From a virus: a stretch of 8,700 nucleotides of DNA. Position 1 is the first letter of the stretch. Each line of letters begins with the position of its first letter. The position numbers and the translations under genes were made by a program. A model generated the notes under the pieces. That model was given only the letters and a program-made list of their open reading frames with translations, made no database searches and had not been told where the DNA came from. Where the stretch lies: UHGV virus genome UHGV-1440302; one strand, 5' to 3'. Shown one piece after another: positions 3,663-7,243 of this stretch.

Positions 3663-3760
3663 TCAGTGCGCATAATGTGACACGCGTTATGTTGAAAAGG
3701 CCGCTGCGATACTCTCCACCGCAGCGGCCTTTTTATACATAACGTCATTGTGCGCACTGA
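3663..3760 (+). other. Candidate XerCD-dependent attP: two inverted dif-like sites that can fold into a forked hairpin in the + ssDNA
   Basis: Site 1 (+): AGTGCGCATAA (3665-3675), 11-nt spacer TGTGACACGCG, TTATGTTGAAA (3687-3697); compare recalled E. coli dif GGTGCGCATAA-TGTATA-TTATGTTAAAT. Site 2 inverted (+ 3732-3758, read on - strand): AGTGCGCACAA-TGACG-TTATGTATAAA. Arms are mutually complementary (3665-3675 with 3748-3758, 10 of 11 pairs; 3687-3697 with 3732-3742, 9 of 11) with unequal unpaired centres, capped by a 10-bp GC stem. Confidence 0.7.
3695..3736. terminator. Bidirectional intrinsic-terminator-like hairpin (also the tip of the attP hairpin)
   Basis: Perfect 10-bp stem ggccgctgcg (3699-3708) / cgcagcggcc (3720-3729), 11-nt loop, AAAA on the 5' side and TTTTTA on the 3' side; lies about 90 bp after the gIV stop and downstream of the minus-strand gene cluster. 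Confidence 0.65.
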
Positions 3761-3763
3761 ACC

Positions 3764-3919
3764 TTAAAGGATTTCAGTGTCCTTACTTAGTTTGTTGTGT
3801 ATGGTCATCACCAACGGTGGGACAAGCGTTATCAGGCTGAATATTGTCATGCCTGTGATGCTGCCAACAACAAAATGCTTTATCAGCAGGTCAAGAATTA
3901 AGTCACTGGTTGTCTGCAT
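3764..3919 (-). CDS. Hypothetical small hydrophobic protein, 51 aa (MQTTSDLILDLLIKHFVVGSITGMTIFSLITLVPPLVMTIHNKLSKDTEIL)
   Basis: Hand-translated minus-strand ORF, below the ORF-track length cut-off; ATG at 3919-3917 immediately after repeat copy 1, stop TAA at 3766-3764; one predicted transmembrane-like segment; only a weak SD (GAAG). Confidence 0.25.
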   Translation of the reverse strand: MQTTSDLILDLLIKHFVVGSITGMTIFSLITLVPPLVMTIHNKLSKDTEIL

Positions 3920-3971
3920 ATTGCTTCTAGCAATCTTCGTATCGATAGGTAACTATAATGTTATTTTTTTG
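3918..3971. repeat. Direct repeat copy 1 (~53 bp) covering the stop codon and 3' flank of a minus-strand small ORF
   Basis: atattgcttctagcaatcttcgtatcgataggtaactataatgttatttttttg matches 4446-4502 with about 3 substitutions and 1 indel; contains palindrome TATCGATA and a TATAAT hexamer (+ strand). Confidence 0.85.
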
Positions 3972-4149
3972 TTGCATCCGTCTTTGCAAATTTCCTGTAG
4001 TCATCTTCTGTTATAGACTCCAGTCCTTTTGCGATTATCCATTCTAAAACTTTGGTATCTTTTACTGGTATTGCCAGTGTTGTTACCACTTTTACAGTTT
4101 CTTTCTCTACCTTTCTCCATAAAACATCGTTTATGTGCTTTGTTGGCAT
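3961..4149 (-). CDS. Small DNA-binding-like protein, divergent paralog of the two upstream ribbon-helix-helix-like ORFs (62 aa from ATG; 82 aa if GTG at 4209 is used)
   Basis: ATG at 4149-4147 preceded by GAGGT with 7-nt spacing; C-terminal segment VKDTKVLEWIIAKGL parallels LKPSEIVNHLIDNYL and VTWSEVVHFMIKNYL of the neighbours; ends KK-stop inside repeat copy 1. The alternative GTG start at 4209 overlaps the upstream ORF's stop by 4 nt. Confidence 0.5.
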   Translation of the reverse strand: MPTKHINDVLWRKVEKETVKVVTTLAIPVKDTKVLEWIIAKGLESITEDDYRKFAKTDATKK

Positions 4150-4205
4150 TTTTACTACCTCTGTTTGATCTTTGTCAGCCCGTCTGTTCGATGCCGGGAA
4201 AGGAA

Positions 4206-4418
4206 TCACATTGCTCTTTTTTTCTTAAGTTCTTCTCTGCTTATTAAATCTTTCACGGCCTCATCTAAGTAATTGTCTATTAAGTGATTAACTATTTCAG
4301 ATGGTTTTAGTATCTCACCGGTCTTATTGCCGATTTCTAGCACTCTTCGTTTTAGCTCCAATTTTCTGTCTTCGTTGATTCTTACAGTTGTGTCTCCGCG
4401 CTTTGTTTCTTTTTTCAT
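4206..4418 (-). CDS. Ribbon-helix-helix (CopG/Arc/MetJ-like) small DNA-binding protein, putative repressor, 70 aa
   Basis: ATG at 4418-4416 preceded by GAGGT with 8-nt spacing. TTVRINEDRKLELKRRVLEIGNKTGEILKPSEIVNHLIDNYL has the strand-helix-helix pattern of CopG/Mnt-type RHH proteins (compare recalled CopG ...LTITLSESVLENLEKMAREMGLSKSAMISVALENY). About 50% identical to ORF 4490-4672 over the helix region. Confidence 0.6.
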   Translation of the reverse strand: MKKETKRGDTTVRINEDRKLELKRRVLEIGNKTGEILKPSEIVNHLIDNYLDEAVKDLISREELKKKRAM

Positions 4419-4502: not shown

Positions 4503-4672
4503 TTTCTTTGGTGGATCATGTCTTGTTTTGCGTCGTTTAAGTAGTTTTTTATCATAAAGTGTACAACTTCCGACCATGTAACTATTTGCCCTGTTTTTTG
4601 GCTTATCTCAAGGGCTATCCTAGTAATATCCAGATATGTTGATTCTGTAATTGCTATTGCCTTTCTTTTCAT
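4490..4672 (-). CDS. Ribbon-helix-helix-like small DNA-binding protein, candidate phage repressor divergently transcribed from the Rep gene, 60 aa
   Basis: ATG at 4672-4670 preceded by GGAG with 8-nt spacing. IAITESTYLDITRIALEISQKTGQIVTWSEVVHFMIKNYL is paralogous to ORF 4206-4418 (shared KTG...SE.V...I.NYL...A..D). Its upstream region is the palindrome-rich divergent region shared with the Rep gene, an arrangement like rstR/rstA in CTXphi. Confidence 0.6.
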   Translation of the reverse strand: MKRKAIAITESTYLDITRIALEISQKTGQIVTWSEVVHFMIKNYLNDAKQDMIHQRNQKK

Positions 4673-4684
4673 TCGCTCATCTCC

Positions 4685-4763
4685 ACTGTTAACAGTTTAA
4701 CAAGACAACATTTTCACTTGACCCATAAAAATTATGAGTGTTAACCTGTTAACACTTTAACAT
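4685..4763. promoter_or_regulatory. Divergent promoter/operator region with a cluster of TGTTAAC palindromes
   Basis: 12-bp perfect palindrome ACTGTTAACAGT (4685-4696); composite palindrome GTGTTAACCTGTTAACAC (4738-4755) with two GTTAAC cores 8 bp apart; degenerate copies gtttaaca (4695-4702) and ctttaaca (4756-4763); TTGACC -35-like hexamer at 4718-4723 (+). Specific -10 elements could not be assigned. Confidence 0.55.
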
Positions 4764-4786
4764 CAGTGCGTTTTTTATTCGTTTTT

Positions 4787-6787
4787 ATGACTGAATCAGC
4801 CATCCTTACAGCGTATAACGCCATCGACGCGGCATCCGTTGCCCTTGGTCGTCCCTGCCTGACGCTGCCCGAACGCGAGCATTTTCGGACTGAGCGCGAT
4901 GTTGTCACCCGCAACCTTGCCACGCTTTCCCGCCAGTATCGTGATGAGGTCGGGACCTTATCTGCACAGCTCGCATTGCCACGTAACACGCAGGTTGACC
5001 GTGTGATTTACGGAATTAACTGCACGGATTTATCTCTCGCTGACAGGGGCAGGGCTGCCGGACTGGTTTCACAGTTTGGCTCGTTTTCGTTCACCGTGGC
5101 GCATGCTTTCTGCCGTCTGGTTTACCAGCTCGGTGTGAAAAATGCGCTGATGGCGCTTGAGTCCGCGCACCGTTTTGCTTTCTTCAATCAGGACGGAGAC
5201 CCTTATGAATTCTCGCTTTTCTGCACTGATGAGCAGATTGCTGAGGTGGCTGATTCGGTTGTTCGTGACTGCCTTGTTTCTCGGACCATTTATAGTGATG
5301 TACCAGAGCATCACCTTCTCAATGTGATGGCCTATTTTCAGGCCATCTCCGGCTTTGATTTCGCCCCCGTTTATGCCACTTATCATGAGCGTTACGGCGA
5401 TGAGGGATTGCTTAAGCGTCTGACTGATTTGGCTTTTGTCACCCGTTTCCTGCGGGTTATCCGTGACCAGCGGGTCAATGAGGTCTGTCGCATGCTCGGC
5501 ATACTGAACCGCAACGCGCCTTATATTTCTGACTGGCATCGTGACCTGTTTGCTGTCCGCAGTAAACGCGTGAAAAAGTATCTCCGGTCCTCCGGTGTCT
5601 TTGATGCGTTTAATGAGCTGGTCTGTACGCTGGAAGATGCGCATAACGCCTCTGTTTCGAATCCGAAAAACCGGATTGCTGAACTCTGCGTTCGTGGAAA
5701 GGCCGTCTGTGAACTGTCCGAAGATATGGGGCTGTCCGGCTACTTCATCGTGCTCACCACGCCGTCACGTTTTCACCCGACGACCAGTTTTAAGGTTGCC
5801 GGAAAATGGCATTCTCGTCCGAATAAAAAATGGTGGGAAGCAGGTTGCCCGACCGTTAAGGATTCGCATGCCTGGCTGAATACCGTCTGGCGTCGGGTCT
5901 GCCGCAGACTGGATAAAGCCGGTATCCAGATACCCGGTCTGCGCACGGTCGAGCCTCATGCTGACGGTACAACGCACTGGAATTTCCTGATTTACTGCAA
6001 TCCCCATGAGAGCGCAACGGTGCTTGCCATTTTCCGTGAAGAGGCCATGCGCGATGAGCCGGATGAAAAGGGGGCGAAAGAGCACCGTATTCGTATTGAG
6101 GCTATTGACCCTGAAAAGGGTGATGGTTTCCGTTACATCGTGAAGTACATCACCAAAATGGCGGGTGATGTCAGTGCGGATGGTATTACCGCCCTGAATG
6201 ACCGTTATTCTGCCCGTTCATTCTGTGATGCCGTCAGCCGTGCCGCCTGCTGGCAGAAAGCAACGCGCCTTCGCCTGTTCCAGTTCTTTGGCGTTCCCTC
6301 CGTTACGGCTTACCGCCAGATGCGCAGCTTCCGCGCACCGCTTGAGGCGCATCATATCAATATGCAGCAGTTCACGCCGCAGCAGGTCGCCGAACTGGAA
6401 GCCATCCGCATGGCCTGTGATGCAGGCGATTTCCGGACCTATATCCTGCTGAACGGCGGTTTCTTCTGTTCTGAACGTCTGCTTCGTCCGTTTTACGTTC
6501 AGCCGCAGGAAGGTGGTAAACCCCGTTTTAACCGTTACGGTGAATCCTGCGCACCGGTGATTTCCGGTTTCATGTTTGGCCCCGTTCCGGTCATAACCCG
6601 TTTTATGGGCTGTGTTGTCCGCCGTATGACCCCCGCAGAAAAAATCCGCGCAGAGGAAGTCAGAAGCGGCAGCAGCTATGAATCTGTGTTTATTTCGTCG
6701 GCTTCACGACACCGCACGACGCGCTCCCGCGCGGCGGGTGGGGGCGGCGAAGCCGACCCTTGGACTTGTGACAATAACTGTCCCTGA
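4787..6787 (+). CDS. Rolling-circle replication initiator of the phiX174 gpA / P2 gpA type (functional equivalent of gII), about 666 aa
   Basis: Long GC-rich ORF; ATG at 4787 (the frame is open from GTG 4766; no clear SD for either). Contains [10 protein letters not shown] (Tyr codons 6134-6136 and 6146-6148), matching the twin-tyrosine active-site motif recalled from phiX174 gpA (FYVAKYVNK). Divergent from the small repressor-like ORF. Stop TGA 6785-6787. Confidence 0.7.
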
Positions 6788-6817
6788 CTGAATTTTTAAC
6801 ATTGAGGAGTCTGATTT

Positions 6818-7243
6818 ATGAATCAAATTTATGACAGTTTTCCGTTTCCTTCCCCTGAGGGTTTTACCGCAGGTATGACAATGGCGGGATATTTTATTCA
6901 CGCCACTGTCATAAATGATGAGGAGTTAAAACCCACGGGTTCTCATTATAACCCTGAGGCCAAACCCAAATATGCCATTGTTATTGCCTATCCGTATGAG
7001 GACCGAAAATTAAAAGTCCGCCGTGAGGAGCATGAGCGCTTTTCCTGTACTGAGGAGGATTTTAAATTTTTTAATTCATGTCCTGATTTGCAGGGCAAAC
7101 CTGTTTATCTCACGGTGGATGTTAACTCATGGTCGACAGGCTCTGAACGTCATGGTGTCTGGTATCGTTTTATTTCCGGCTCCATGAAACGTTTTGACGG
7201 TCAGCCGCTGGGTGCACTGCCCGCTGGTAAAGAAAAAGGCTGA
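6818..7243 (+). CDS. Hypothetical protein in the gV position (possible ssDNA-binding protein), 141 aa
   Basis: Strong RBS GAGGAG (6804-6809), ATG 6818; located between the Rep gene and the small coat-protein genes where Ff phages encode gV. No sequence similarity to M13 pV recognised; assignment is positional only. Confidence 0.4.
   Translation: MNQIYDSFPFPSPEGFTAGMTMAGYFIHATVINDEELKPTGSHYNPEAKPKYAIVIAYPYEDRKLKVRREEHERFSCTEEDFKFFNSCPDLQGKPVYLTVDVNSWSTGSERHGVWYRFISGSMKRFDGQPLGALPAGKEKG

What the first reader, a model, noticed from the sequence alone, without database searches (positions are those of the whole stretch)
3760..7243. Sharp compositional mosaic: AT-rich regulatory island next to a GC-rich replication module
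Seen in sequence: hand counts on sample 60-bp stretches give about 35% GC in the minus-strand small-ORF region (e.g. 4201-4260) against about 62% GC in the Rep gene (e.g. 4861-4920). gVI and the gIII C-terminal domain are also AT-rich, while the Gly/Ser array is GC-rich because of its codons. Inference: the genome is assembled from modules with different evolutionary origins (accessory regulatory cassette, Rep/gV module, Ff-like morphogenesis module).
Basis: seen in the sequence. Interest (0 to 1): 0.45.

Follow-up and report, generated by a model that had tools for sequence, protein, structure and literature searches.

The report
AT-rich immunity cassette beside phage Rep
The sharp GC drop is real: it marks the exchangeable repressor (immunity) cassette of a filamentous E. 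coli phage that integrates at the chromosomal dif site, joined at the start codon of a replication gene with host-like GC, which makes it a clear but ordinary case of modular phage evolution.

Summary
Penalised-likelihood segmentation splits the 8.7-kb contig into seven GC blocks. The 36.4% to 54.9% step near 4819 is the largest in the window, and shuffled sequence gave no change-points.

The AT-rich block (about 3730-4818) is the lysogeny and immunity region of a CTX/YpfPhi-style inovirus. It holds a small membrane ORF, two stacked cassettes of RstR-like repressors (orf62+orf71, then orf60), a 60-nt direct repeat after each cassette, and GTTAAC-type operator repeats in front of Rep.

Related E. 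coli prophages keep Rep+gV at 94-99.5% identity, but homology stops at the Rep ATG (4787-4790). Upstream they carry other repressor alleles with matching operators, only one of the two cassettes, or an IS110-family transposase with no island at all. One of them also has an unrelated morphogenesis module. So modules of separate ancestry are shown directly.

Two refinements apply. About half the GC gap comes from amino-acid composition and half from synonymous sites. Every alternative repressor-type region examined is also AT-rich, so low GC belongs to the cassette class. gV travels with Rep but is not GC-rich.

The phenomenon is known (CTXphi rstR/ig-2; UPphi/YpfPhi gII-gV). Interest is modest.

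The parts
3663..3760 (+). attP: two inverted dif-like arms (3663-3677 and 3746-3760) around a GC-rich stem. As plus-strand ssDNA it folds into a forked hairpin that mimics a XerC/XerD dif duplex. It is the left edge of the lysogeny region.
   Evidence: Inverted repeat I5. ssDNA fold -40.8 kcal/mol, z = -10.8. Related prophages begin at 3664-3666 and end at 3678, next to hipA, and a dif site AGTGCGCATAATGTATATTATGTTAAAT lies at the hipA-distal end of four of the arrays (L001, L004, L006, L007).
3764..3919 (-). orf51, a small hydrophobic protein next to attP. Its GC3 is 0.55, so it does not belong to the AT-rich class.
   Evidence: ORF list, gene call on the source contig, shared N-terminal motif with the L007 ORF at 7712-7885, GC3.
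3911..3970 (.). Copy 1 of a ~60-nt direct repeat, lying just 3' of the orf62 stop codon.
   Evidence: Repeat families D3 and D14, 93% and 83% identity, spacing 528-529 nt. In L004 the sequence between the two copies is missing and a single copy remains.
3961..4209 (-). orf62/orf82 (phrog_5219, function unknown), downstream partner of orf71. The conserved form is the 62-aa protein that starts at 4149.
   Evidence: PHROG hit E = 6e-22 covering residues 21-81. PGAP calls a 62-aa product in L006 and L008. 67% amino-acid identity to a Xenorhabdus szentirmaii locus.
4206..4421 (-). orf71, an RstR-like repressor of the second allele type. Its cognate operators are absent from this genome.
   Evidence: phrog_2503, E = 3e-26. 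70% DNA identity to the gene annotated rstR in Vibrio pre-CTX. The operator motifs that accompany this allele in L006, the L001 satellite and pre-CTX are not found in the window.
4439..4499 (.). Copy 2 of the ~60-nt direct repeat, just 3' of the orf60 stop codon and 5' of orf71.
   Evidence: sequences shown.
4490..4672 (-). orf60, an RstR-like repressor divergent from Rep; a paralogue of orf71 (42% identity).
   Evidence: phrog_2503, E = 6e-27; alignment A1. It is the only repressor in L004, where it is 100% identical in amino-acid sequence.
4673..4786 (.). Divergent control region with operator repeats TGTTAACAnTTTAACA at 4687-4702, 4739-4754 (palindromic) and 4747-4762. A candidate Rep promoter is -35 TTGACC at 4718-4723 with an extended -10 TGtTAACCT at 4739-4747.
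   Evidence: Motif search: 5 matches in the window against 0.01 expected; four lie in this region and one 2-mismatch match lies at 4081-4096. The motif type changes with the repressor allele in relatives. The promoter was read by eye; the consensus scan did not report it.
4787..6787 (+). Rep, a rolling-circle replication endonuclease of the P2 GpA / phiX174 A type. It forms the GC-rich block (0.546, GC3 0.575).
   Evidence: PF05840, E = 6e-49. phrog_91 'nicking at origin', E = 1e-128. Invariant H391/H397 and Y450-x3-Y454 (YIVKYITK) in alignment A4. The ATG at 4787 is the start called by PGAP in relatives and by the gene caller on the source contig.
6818..7243 (+). Presumed gene V (ssDNA-binding protein). 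It co-inherits with Rep, but its GC is 0.448.
   Evidence: In L002 the HSP 4790-7236 is 99.3% identical and homology ends there. Weak PF17426 hit, E = 0.075. phrog_30648, E = 2e-95.
166..993 (+). Second AT-rich block (0.350): the gIII C-terminal domain plus gVI. It is also an exchangeable unit.
   Evidence: Segmentation. In L008, 264-1005 is replaced while the flanking gI is 98% identical, and the replacement is also AT-rich at 0.35-0.36.

Best explanation
The window is a complete or nearly complete, circularly permuted genome of a temperate filamentous phage (inovirus) of Escherichia coli. Like CTXphi and YpfPhi, it appears to integrate at the chromosomal dif site through a folded single-stranded attP.

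The AT-rich block at about 3730-4818 is its lysogeny and immunity region. It is built from small, portable cassettes, each holding an RstR-like repressor gene with its own operator set. These cassettes recombine among inoviruses independently of the replication and morphogenesis genes. Here two cassettes are stacked:
- orf60 sits divergently from Rep. It most likely represses the Rep promoter by binding the TGTTAACAnTTTAACA repeats that overlap it.
- orf71+orf62 lies downstream of orf60, lacks its own operator/promoter region, and is most likely co-transcribed with orf60.

The right-hand junction of the cassette region is the Rep start codon. Rep has host-like GC, so a GC step of about 19 points arises there. 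Roughly half of the step comes from the Lys/Glu/Ile/Asn-rich composition of the small regulators. The other half comes from AT-rich synonymous sites, which match the composition of the low-GC Enterobacterales and Orbales where the closest cassette relatives occur.

Shown here: the GC step, the breakpoints, module-by-module incongruence, covariation of repressor allele and operator type, the attP fold, and the dif location of relatives. Inferred: repressor function, promoter positions, co-transcription, and the direction and timing of transfer.
For: GC step and segmentation.

Breakpoint at the Rep ATG: in 29 of the 41 Rep-bearing E. coli records listed, the match begins at Rep-query nt 20-28 (window 4785-4793). 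Only 3 genomes carry the full island, at 99.7-99.9% identity. Local HSPs start at 4787-4790 in L002, L003, L005, L006 and L021.

Alternative contents upstream of the same Rep:
- orf60 only (L004)
- orf62+orf71 only (L006)
- a different 62-aa allele (L005)
- DUF2726 + a small ORF + orf60 (L007)
- an IS110-family transposase with neither attP nor island (L002, L003, L021)
.

L021 is 96-98% identical to the window from Rep through gIV, yet it has no island and no GC step. L002 shares only Rep+gV.

Each repressor allele comes with its own operator motif: GTTAAC-type, TTGCAC-type or GCATGCG-type. The GCATGCG type is shared by L006, a satellite element in L001 that carries a Rep_trans-type replication gene, and Vibrio pre-CTX.

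orf71 is homologous to a gene annotated rstR that lies next to rstA in pre-CTX.

Identity contrast: orf71 relatives are 71-80% identical in Gilliamella, Xenorhabdus, Providencia and Arsenophonus. Rep relatives in Morganella, Providencia and Xenorhabdus are 41-45% identical. Within Xenorhabdus locus L020, orf62 is 67% identical while Rep is 42%.

Rep GC follows the host: 0.39-0.41 in Xenorhabdus, 0.487 in Salmonella diarizonae, 0.546 here.

Four of the six GC change-points lie within 37 nt of a homology breakpoint (permutation P about 0.003-0.017).

Literature: RstR with ig-2 forms allele-specific immunity modules (PMC11509585). YpfPhi has an RstR homologue at this position and variable ORFs next to attL (PMC4266046). 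UPphi901 shares only genes II and V with YpfPhi (PMC7307601). Replication and integration genes are the most frequently exchanged genes in inoviruses (PMC6813254).
Against: GC alone does not prove foreign origin. With the codon usage of Rep, gI and gIV, the island proteins would still be only 0.41-0.44 GC.

Every alternative repressor-type region, the replacement gIII-C/gVI alleles, and the rstR-family gene in pre-CTX and Dulem virus 55 are all AT-rich relative to their neighbours. Function-linked composition is therefore a real contributor.

The change-point at 6766 (Rep to gV) has no matching recombination breakpoint among the nine E. coli relatives.

The consensus promoter scan found nothing in the control region.

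Only nine E. coli relatives were mapped in detail, and no formal trees were built.
Confidence: 0.8

Rival explanations
1. The AT-richness is purely functional rather than historical. Small regulators rich in Lys, Glu, Ile and Asn, AT-rich promoter and operator DNA, and possibly selection for binding by H-NS or SlyA/RovA-type nucleoid proteins would keep this position AT-rich whatever its ancestry. On this view the step says nothing about origin.
For: Amino-acid composition alone lowers the expected GC to 0.41-0.44 against 0.52 for Rep. All non-homologous repressor-type alternatives are 0.36-0.39 GC. The rstR-family gene is the AT-richest gene in Vibrio pre-CTX and in Dulem virus 55. RovA binds the promoter region of the YpfPhi Rep gene (PMC4266046).
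Against: Synonymous third positions also differ strongly: 0.31-0.35 against 0.575, p = 2e-7. In Xenorhabdus phages the same gene classes show no step, because Rep there is 0.39-0.41 GC. The IS110 variants work without any AT-rich block upstream of Rep. Independent ancestry is shown directly by breakpoints and identity contrasts. This rival therefore explains part of the size of the step but does not replace the mosaic.
Confidence: 0.15
2. The mosaic is an artefact: the metagenomic contig is a chimera of two different elements joined by the assembler.
For: The window is a SPAdes-style metagenome contig (NODE_663, coverage 14.9) whose ends lie inside the repetitive Gly/Ser array of gIII.
Against: The island, the Rep junction and the whole stretch 3664-8299 recur at 97-99.9% identity in chromosome-level E. 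coli assemblies E100341, E300010 and AST205. The Rep protein recurs exactly, with the same 62/70/60-aa ORFs upstream, on two of three further independent contigs, L012 and L013.
Confidence: 0.02
3. The step reflects gene orientation and strand-specific mutation in an ssDNA phage. The island is the only block coded on the minus strand, so strand-asymmetric deamination or transcription bias would create the difference.
For: The island coincides with the only leftward-transcribed genes. The plus strand is T-rich throughout (AT skew -0.35 to -0.47 in the island).
Against: Strand asymmetry changes skews, not G+C content. The plus-strand genes gVI and gIII-C are just as AT-rich at 0.34-0.37. orf51, also on the minus strand, has a GC3 of 0.55.
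Confidence: 0.03

Closest known systems
CTXphi / pre-CTXphi rstR-ig-2 immunity module (Vibrio cholerae)
   Same: A small repressor gene divergent from the replication gene, allele-specific operators in the intergenic region, many interchangeable alleles on an otherwise conserved backbone, location next to a dif-type attP, and tandem arrays at dif. orf71 aligns with a pre-CTX gene annotated rstR: 70% DNA identity over 163 nt, with the same GCATGCG-type operator motif in relatives (PMC11509585).
   Different: The replication protein here is of the P2 GpA type (PF05840), not RstA (Rep_trans). Two repressor cassettes are stacked, and the second lacks its operators. The host is E. coli. No repression has been measured for these alleles.
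YpfPhi (Yersinia pestis) and CUS-1 (E. coli O18:K1:H7) prophages
   Same: About 8.7 kb, integrated at dif as tandem repeats, an RstR homologue upstream of the replication genes, and ORFs next to attL that differ between otherwise near-identical phages (PMC4266046).
   Different: Sequence relatedness to YpfPhi or CUS-1 could not be tested, because neither sequence was available in the searchable collections. The 90% cluster of the window's Rep showed only E. coli members among those read.
UPphi901 versus YpfPhi exchange of the gene II + gene V module (Shapiro and Putonti 2020, PMC7307601)
   Same: A Rep+gV block shared between phages whose remaining genes are unrelated. L002 shows the same pattern: 4790-7236 at 99.3%, with no DNA similarity elsewhere.
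   Different: Here the exchange partners also include the immunity/attP module and an IS110-family transposase, and the breakpoints are resolved to a few nucleotides.
Modular (Botstein-type) evolution of lambdoid phage immunity regions
   Same: Interchangeable repressor and operator units flanked by conserved sequence that can mediate exchange (from my own knowledge of the field). Here the 60-nt repeat, attP and the 5' end of Rep play the flanking role.
   Different: An ssDNA filamentous phage with much smaller cassettes (0.3-0.5 kb); the repressors are unrelated to CI and Cro.
Neisseria filamentous prophages (Nf/MDA) that integrate with an IS110-family transposase
   Same: The relatives L002, L003 and L021 carry an IS110-family transposase directly upstream of Rep, in place of attP and the repressors, and sit at non-dif sites. 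The comparison with Neisseria is from my own knowledge and was not tested.
   Different: The window itself has no transposase. No sequence relationship to the Neisseria enzymes was examined.

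Membership tests
Inovirus (filamentous ssDNA phage, Tubulavirales) | Zot/pI-type assembly ATPase and, in phages of Gram-negative hosts, often a pIV secretin | tested here: met
   PF05707 Zot, E = 4e-9, for 1010-2221; PF00263 Secretin, E = 3e-24, for 2383-3606.
Inovirus (filamentous ssDNA phage, Tubulavirales) | Small genome with the gene order Rep - ssDNA-binding protein - small coat proteins - Gly-rich pIII - pVI - pI | tested here: met
   ORF map. gIII with a signal peptide and a Gly/Ser array that runs across the contig ends. 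Weak PHROG hits to a virion structural protein for gVIII and gVI.
Inovirus (filamentous ssDNA phage, Tubulavirales) | Gene V ssDNA-binding protein | tested here: inconclusive
   Only PF17426 at E = 0.075, below the family cut-off. The assignment rests on position and size.
Mobile elements that integrate at dif using the host XerC/XerD recombinases (IMEX), CTX type | Two dif-like half-sites in inverted orientation that fold into a dif-like duplex in plus-strand ssDNA | tested here: met
   Arms 3663-3677 and 3746-3760. Fold -40.8 kcal/mol, z = -10.8, with an internal bulge at the central region.
Mobile elements that integrate at dif using the host XerC/XerD recombinases (IMEX), CTX type | No phage-encoded integrase; prophage copies lie at chromosomal dif, with a dif site kept at one end | tested here: met
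   No recombinase appears among the ORFs or Pfam hits. Relatives lie next to hipA. A dif site with one mismatch lies at the hipA-distal end of the arrays in L001, L004, L006 and L007.
Mobile elements that integrate at dif using the host XerC/XerD recombinases (IMEX), CTX type | XerC-catalysed strand exchange on the folded ssDNA | not testable with these tools
   Needs in vivo or in vitro recombination assays.
RstR-type immunity module | A small gene transcribed divergently from the replication gene, adjacent to attP | tested here: met
   orf60 at 4490-4672 (-) against Rep at 4787 (+), separated by a 114-nt control region.
RstR-type immunity module | Homology to a characterised RstR | tested here: inconclusive
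   orf71 aligns with a pre-CTX gene annotated rstR by its depositor, and a UniRef entry from Arsenophonus is named RstR. Which of the tested rstR alleles this corresponds to was not established. There was no Pfam hit.
RstR-type immunity module | Allele-specific repeated operators between the repressor gene and the replication gene | tested here: met
   Five TGTTAACAnTTTAACA matches against 0.01 expected, four of them in the control region. The motif class changes with the repressor allele across L004/L007, L005, and L006/L001-satellite/pre-CTX.
RstR-type immunity module | Demonstrated repression of the rep promoter and superinfection immunity | not testable with these tools
   Needs reporter and infection assays.
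Ribbon-helix-helix repressors (considered for orf60 and orf71) | An N-terminal beta-strand plus two helices, with structural similarity to Arc/MetJ/CopG | tested here: not met
P2 GpA / phiX174 A-type HUH rolling-circle Rep (PF05840) | Pfam score above the gathering cut-off | tested here: met
   167.2 bits against a cut-off of 31.4.
P2 GpA / phiX174 A-type HUH rolling-circle Rep (PF05840) | A histidine metal-binding motif and a paired catalytic tyrosine motif Y-x3-Y | tested here: met
   [11 protein letters not shown] and YIVKYITK. H391, H397, Y450, K453 and Y454 are invariant in the 11-sequence alignment A4.
Horizontally exchanged compositional island | GC and GC3 deviation with sharp boundaries | tested here: met
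Horizontally exchanged compositional island | Incongruent relatedness of the island and its flanks | tested here: met
   Module identity matrix. orf71 relatives at 71-80% against Rep relatives at 41-45% in low-GC Enterobacterales and Orbales. Formal trees were not built.

The most novel reading that the evidence does not exclude
The stacked second cassette (orf71+orf62) may be an 'orphan' immunity unit. It has no cognate operators in its own genome, so it could be expressed from the orf60 operon to repress other elements that carry GCATGCG-type operators. Candidates are heteroimmune relatives such as the L006 type and the satellite with a Rep_trans-type replication gene that sits beside this phage in E. 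coli E300010. A filamentous phage would then hold dual immunity, or control over a co-resident satellite, acquired by cassette stacking at a 60-nt linker repeat.
Probability: 0.25. Interest if true: 0.5.

Novelty: new member of a known kind. Interest (0 to 1): 0.3.

Why it matters
This is a clean, nucleotide-resolved example of how temperate filamentous phages of enteric bacteria are assembled. An immunity/attP cassette, a Rep+gV unit, receptor and coat segments and assembly genes recombine independently, and the same phage body can carry either a dif-attP/repressor module or an IS110-family transposase.

In practice, a GC step of this kind can serve as a quick marker of the immunity-cassette boundary when annotating cryptic inoviruses. 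Immunity type, integration site and replication type should then be scored separately when these prophages are typed in pathogenic E. coli. It does not change current understanding.

Tried and rejected
- Binary Jensen-Shannon segmentation missed the island because it sits in the middle of the sequence. An over-strict penalty found nothing. Penalties that gave no change-points in shuffled sequence gave the final segmentation.
- Megablast of the whole window against deposited phages found no match. The more sensitive blastn search found only the rstR stretch and one short Dulem virus hit. pI is at most 35% identical to any phage record, so 'Ff-like' is not a sequence relationship.
- The ribbon-helix-helix idea for the repressors was not supported: no PDB sequence hit and no fold match.
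- The consensus promoter and terminator scan found nothing useful in the control region.
- Rfam gave no match in the window.
- The first scan of the genome collection with Rep found nothing. A second scan with an alignment gave six Salmonella and Xenorhabdus loci.
- Direct comparison with YpfPhi or CUS-1 was not possible. Cluster look-ups showed only E. coli members.
- Co-occurrence of the window-type phage with a satellite carrying orf71-type operators was seen in one of three genomes only. It gives no statistical support for the dual-immunity idea.
- A minus-strand 191-aa ORF inside Rep (5069-5644) was treated as a by-product of high GC and not pursued.

Full report
**What the window is.** The 8700-nt window is an entire metagenomic contig (ENA ERZ652531, NODE_663). 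Both ends fall inside the Gly/Ser repeat array of gene III. Read in frame, gIII starts near 7878, runs off the 3' end and continues from position 1 to 641, so the sequence is a circularly permuted filamentous-phage genome.

The gene order is:
- gIII C-terminal part, 192-641
- gVI, 644-1006
- gI (Zot domain, PF05707), 1010-2221
- gIV (Secretin), 2383-3606
- an attP-like hairpin, 3663-3760
- four small minus-strand ORFs
- Rep, 4787-6787 (Phage_GPA, PF05840, 167 bits)
- presumed gV, 6818-7243
- small ORFs and gVIII, 7576-7818

.

**Checking the observation.** In 200-nt windows GC rises from 0.34 (4601-4800) to 0.595 (4801-5000).

My first binary segmentation missed the island because it lies in the middle of the sequence. 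An optimal-partition segmentation, at two penalties that each gave no change-point in 15 shuffles, produced seven blocks: 1-165 (.667), 166-993 (.350), 994-3729 (.502), 3730-4818 (.364), 4819-6765 (.549), 6766-8538 (.441) and 8539-8700 (.673).

The step at 4819 is the largest in the window, 0.24 between adjacent 300-nt windows. The 300 nt on either side of 4787 differ with Fisher p = 1e-8. One correction is needed. gV is 0.448 and is separated from Rep by its own change-point, so the GC-rich unit is Rep alone.

**What the AT-rich block contains.** On the minus strand lie:
- orf51 (3764-3919), hydrophobic
- orf62/82 (3961-4209; phrog_5219)
- orf71 (4206-4421)
- orf60 (4490-4672)

orf71 and orf60 are paralogues (42% identity) and both fall in phrog_2503. 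A ~60-nt direct repeat follows each cassette, at 3911-3970 and 4439-4499.

orf71 DNA is 70% identical to the gene annotated rstR in Vibrio pre-CTX, where it lies divergently from rstA. A similar pair of leftward ORFs precedes a different replication gene in Dulem virus 55.

The 114-nt region between orf60 and Rep carries the motif TGTTAACAnTTTAACA at 4687, 4739 (palindromic) and 4747. The window has five matches in all, four of them in this region, against 0.01 expected by chance.

In relatives the motif changes with the repressor allele: TTGCAC repeats go with the L005 allele, and GCATGCG...TTTACA / ATGCGCGCATGC goes with orf71-type alleles in L006, in a satellite element in L001 that carries a Rep_trans-type replication gene, and in pre-CTX. 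That covariation is the signature of an immunity module.

The orf71-type operators are absent from the window. orf71 is separated from the orf60 stop codon by only 68 nt, most of it the repeat. It is therefore probably co-transcribed with orf60 and has no target in cis.

**Integration module.** Just left of the island, positions 3663-3760 fold as plus-strand ssDNA into a forked hairpin (-40.8 kcal/mol, z = -10.8). Its arms read like the XerC and XerD arms of dif, with a bulged centre.

Related prophages lie next to hipBA. They begin at window 3664-3666 and end at 3678, and a dif site with one mismatch lies at the hipA-distal end of four of the arrays (L001, L004, L006, L007). This is the CTX-type way of exploiting the host Xer recombinases (PMC3089051, PMC12715192).

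**Direct test of the mosaic.** The window has no megablast match among deposited phages, but it matches 272 E. coli genomes in pieces.

Rep alone occurs in 40 genomes. In 29 of the 41 records listed, the match starts at Rep-query nucleotides 20-28, that is window 4785-4793. The island occurs in full in three genomes only, at 99.7-99.9% identity.

I mapped nine E. coli loci in detail:
- **L008 and L001** carry the same island.
- **L004** has orf60 only. It lacks exactly the sequence between the two repeat copies.
- **L006** has orf62+orf71 only, with the GCATGCG-type control region abutting Rep.
- **L005** has another 62-aa allele.
- **L007** has a DUF2726 gene, a small ORF and orf60.
- **L002, L003 and L021** have neither attP nor island. 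Instead they carry an IS110-family transposase gene that ends 3 nt before the Rep ATG, and they sit at hcxB-ybiB or hcaR-hcaE rather than at dif.

L021 is otherwise 96-98% identical to the window from Rep through gIV and shows no GC step. L002 shares only 4790-7236 (99.3%) and has unrelated structural and assembly genes.

Other segments vary independently as well. The gIII-C+gVI block (264-1005) is replaced in L008 although gI is 98% identical. gIV is 99% in L008 but 86-90% in L001, L005, L004 and L006. gIII-N is 96% in L003 but 82-84% or absent elsewhere.

Four of the six GC change-points lie 6-37 nt from a homology breakpoint (permutation P about 0.003-0.017). The Rep/gV change-point has no breakpoint partner.

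**Where the composition comes from.** With the codon usage of Rep, gI and gIV, the island proteins would still be only 0.41-0.44 GC, against 0.34-0.36 observed and 0.546 for Rep. About half of the gap is therefore amino-acid composition and half is synonymous: GC3 is 0.31-0.35 against 0.575, p = 2e-7.

All alternative repressor-type regions are 0.36-0.39 GC, and the replacement gIII-C/gVI alleles are 0.35-0.36. The rstR-family gene is the AT-richest gene in pre-CTX and in Dulem virus 55. Low GC is thus a trait of this cassette class, not the mark of a single donor.

Rep homologues follow their hosts: 0.39-0.41 in Xenorhabdus, 0.487 in Salmonella diarizonae and 0.546 here. The Xenorhabdus phages show no step.

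orf71 has relatives at 71-80% amino-acid identity in Gilliamella, Xenorhabdus, Providencia and Arsenophonus. Rep relatives in Morganella, Providencia and Xenorhabdus are only 41-45% identical. Within one Xenorhabdus locus, orf62 is 67% identical and Rep 42%.

The simplest reading is that the cassettes circulate widely among inoviruses of lower-GC Enterobacterales and Orbales and have kept that composition. Rep, in contrast, has a longer history in Escherichia-like GC.

**Comparison with what is known.** RstR with ig-2 is the textbook allele-specific immunity module of CTXphi, with eleven alleles and no cross-immunity (PMC11509585). YpfPhi and CUS-1 have an RstR homologue in the same place and differ in the ORFs next to attL (PMC4266046). 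UPphi901 shares only genes II and V with YpfPhi, which its authors interpreted as recombination (PMC7307601). A survey of inoviruses found replication and integration genes to be the most frequently exchanged (PMC6813254).

The finding is therefore a well-resolved new instance of a known phenomenon. Sequence relatedness to YpfPhi or CUS-1 could not be tested with the collections available.

**Verdict.** Novelty is 'new member of a known kind', and interest is about 0.3.

The least ordinary element is the stacked second repressor cassette without operators. It may give dual immunity or control over a co-resident satellite. I hold that at about 25%.

Noticed in passing
window 2229-2369 (gI-gIV intergenic region); L022 2518-2658: A 141-nt stretch is 97% identical to 2.75-kb RepL plasmids, one of them resident in E. 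coli E200086, which also carries the related IS110-variant prophage L021. The 276-nt query around it also matches over 500 plasmid places at 60-80% identity. As ssDNA the stretch forms two long hairpins (-36.4 kcal/mol, z = -5.9). None of the nine mapped E. coli loci aligned to this segment, although a downstream copy in E100341, beyond the end of L008, carries it. It is 100% identical in three other E. coli genome places. It may be a single-strand initiation (minus-strand origin) signal shared with plasmids.
   Followed up: partly
L002 7027-7992, L003 7024-7989, L021 7024-7989: Variants of this phage carry an IS110-family transposase (labelled 'RNA-guided' by PGAP in L002 and L003) that ends 3 nt before the Rep ATG, in place of attP and the repressors. 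They are inserted at hcxB-ybiB or hcaR-hcaE rather than at dif. Matches in about 20 further E. coli records begin at the same Rep coordinates (query nt 25 or 28) as in the three examined, but their upstream regions were not inspected.
   Followed up: partly
window 3663-3760: A CTX-type attP: inverted dif-like arms fold into a forked hairpin in the plus strand (-40.8 kcal/mol, z = -10.8). Prophage ends in relatives map to 3664-3678, and a dif site lies at the hipA-distal end of four arrays.
   Followed up: yes
L001 6001-9008: In E. coli E300010 a ~3-kb satellite-like element sits at dif in front of the window-type phage. It has its own attP, an orf71-like repressor (88.7% DNA identity), GCATGCG-type operators and a Rep_trans-type ('replication initiation factor') gene. 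About 25 E. coli genomes carry this orf71 variant.
   Followed up: partly
window 3911-3970 and 4439-4499: A ~60-nt direct repeat lies immediately 3' of each repressor cassette. L004 lacks exactly the sequence between the copies, so the repeat looks like the linker at which cassettes are added or lost.
   Followed up: partly
L021 15644-16303; L007 8037-8603: A very AT-rich (0.28 GC in L021) DUF2726 gene appears as cargo at different positions in related prophages: after gIV in L021, and between attP and orf60 in L007.
   Followed up: no
window 1-165 and 8539-8700: The gIII Gly/Ser array is made of 39-nt units, seven copies at 83-100% identity. The contig breaks inside it, and the copies at the two ends are not identical, so the true array length and the circular junction are unresolved.
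   Followed up: no
window 4081-4096: One further 2-mismatch copy of the orf60-type operator motif (TGTTACCACTTTTACA) lies inside orf62. It may be chance or an auxiliary site.
   Followed up: no
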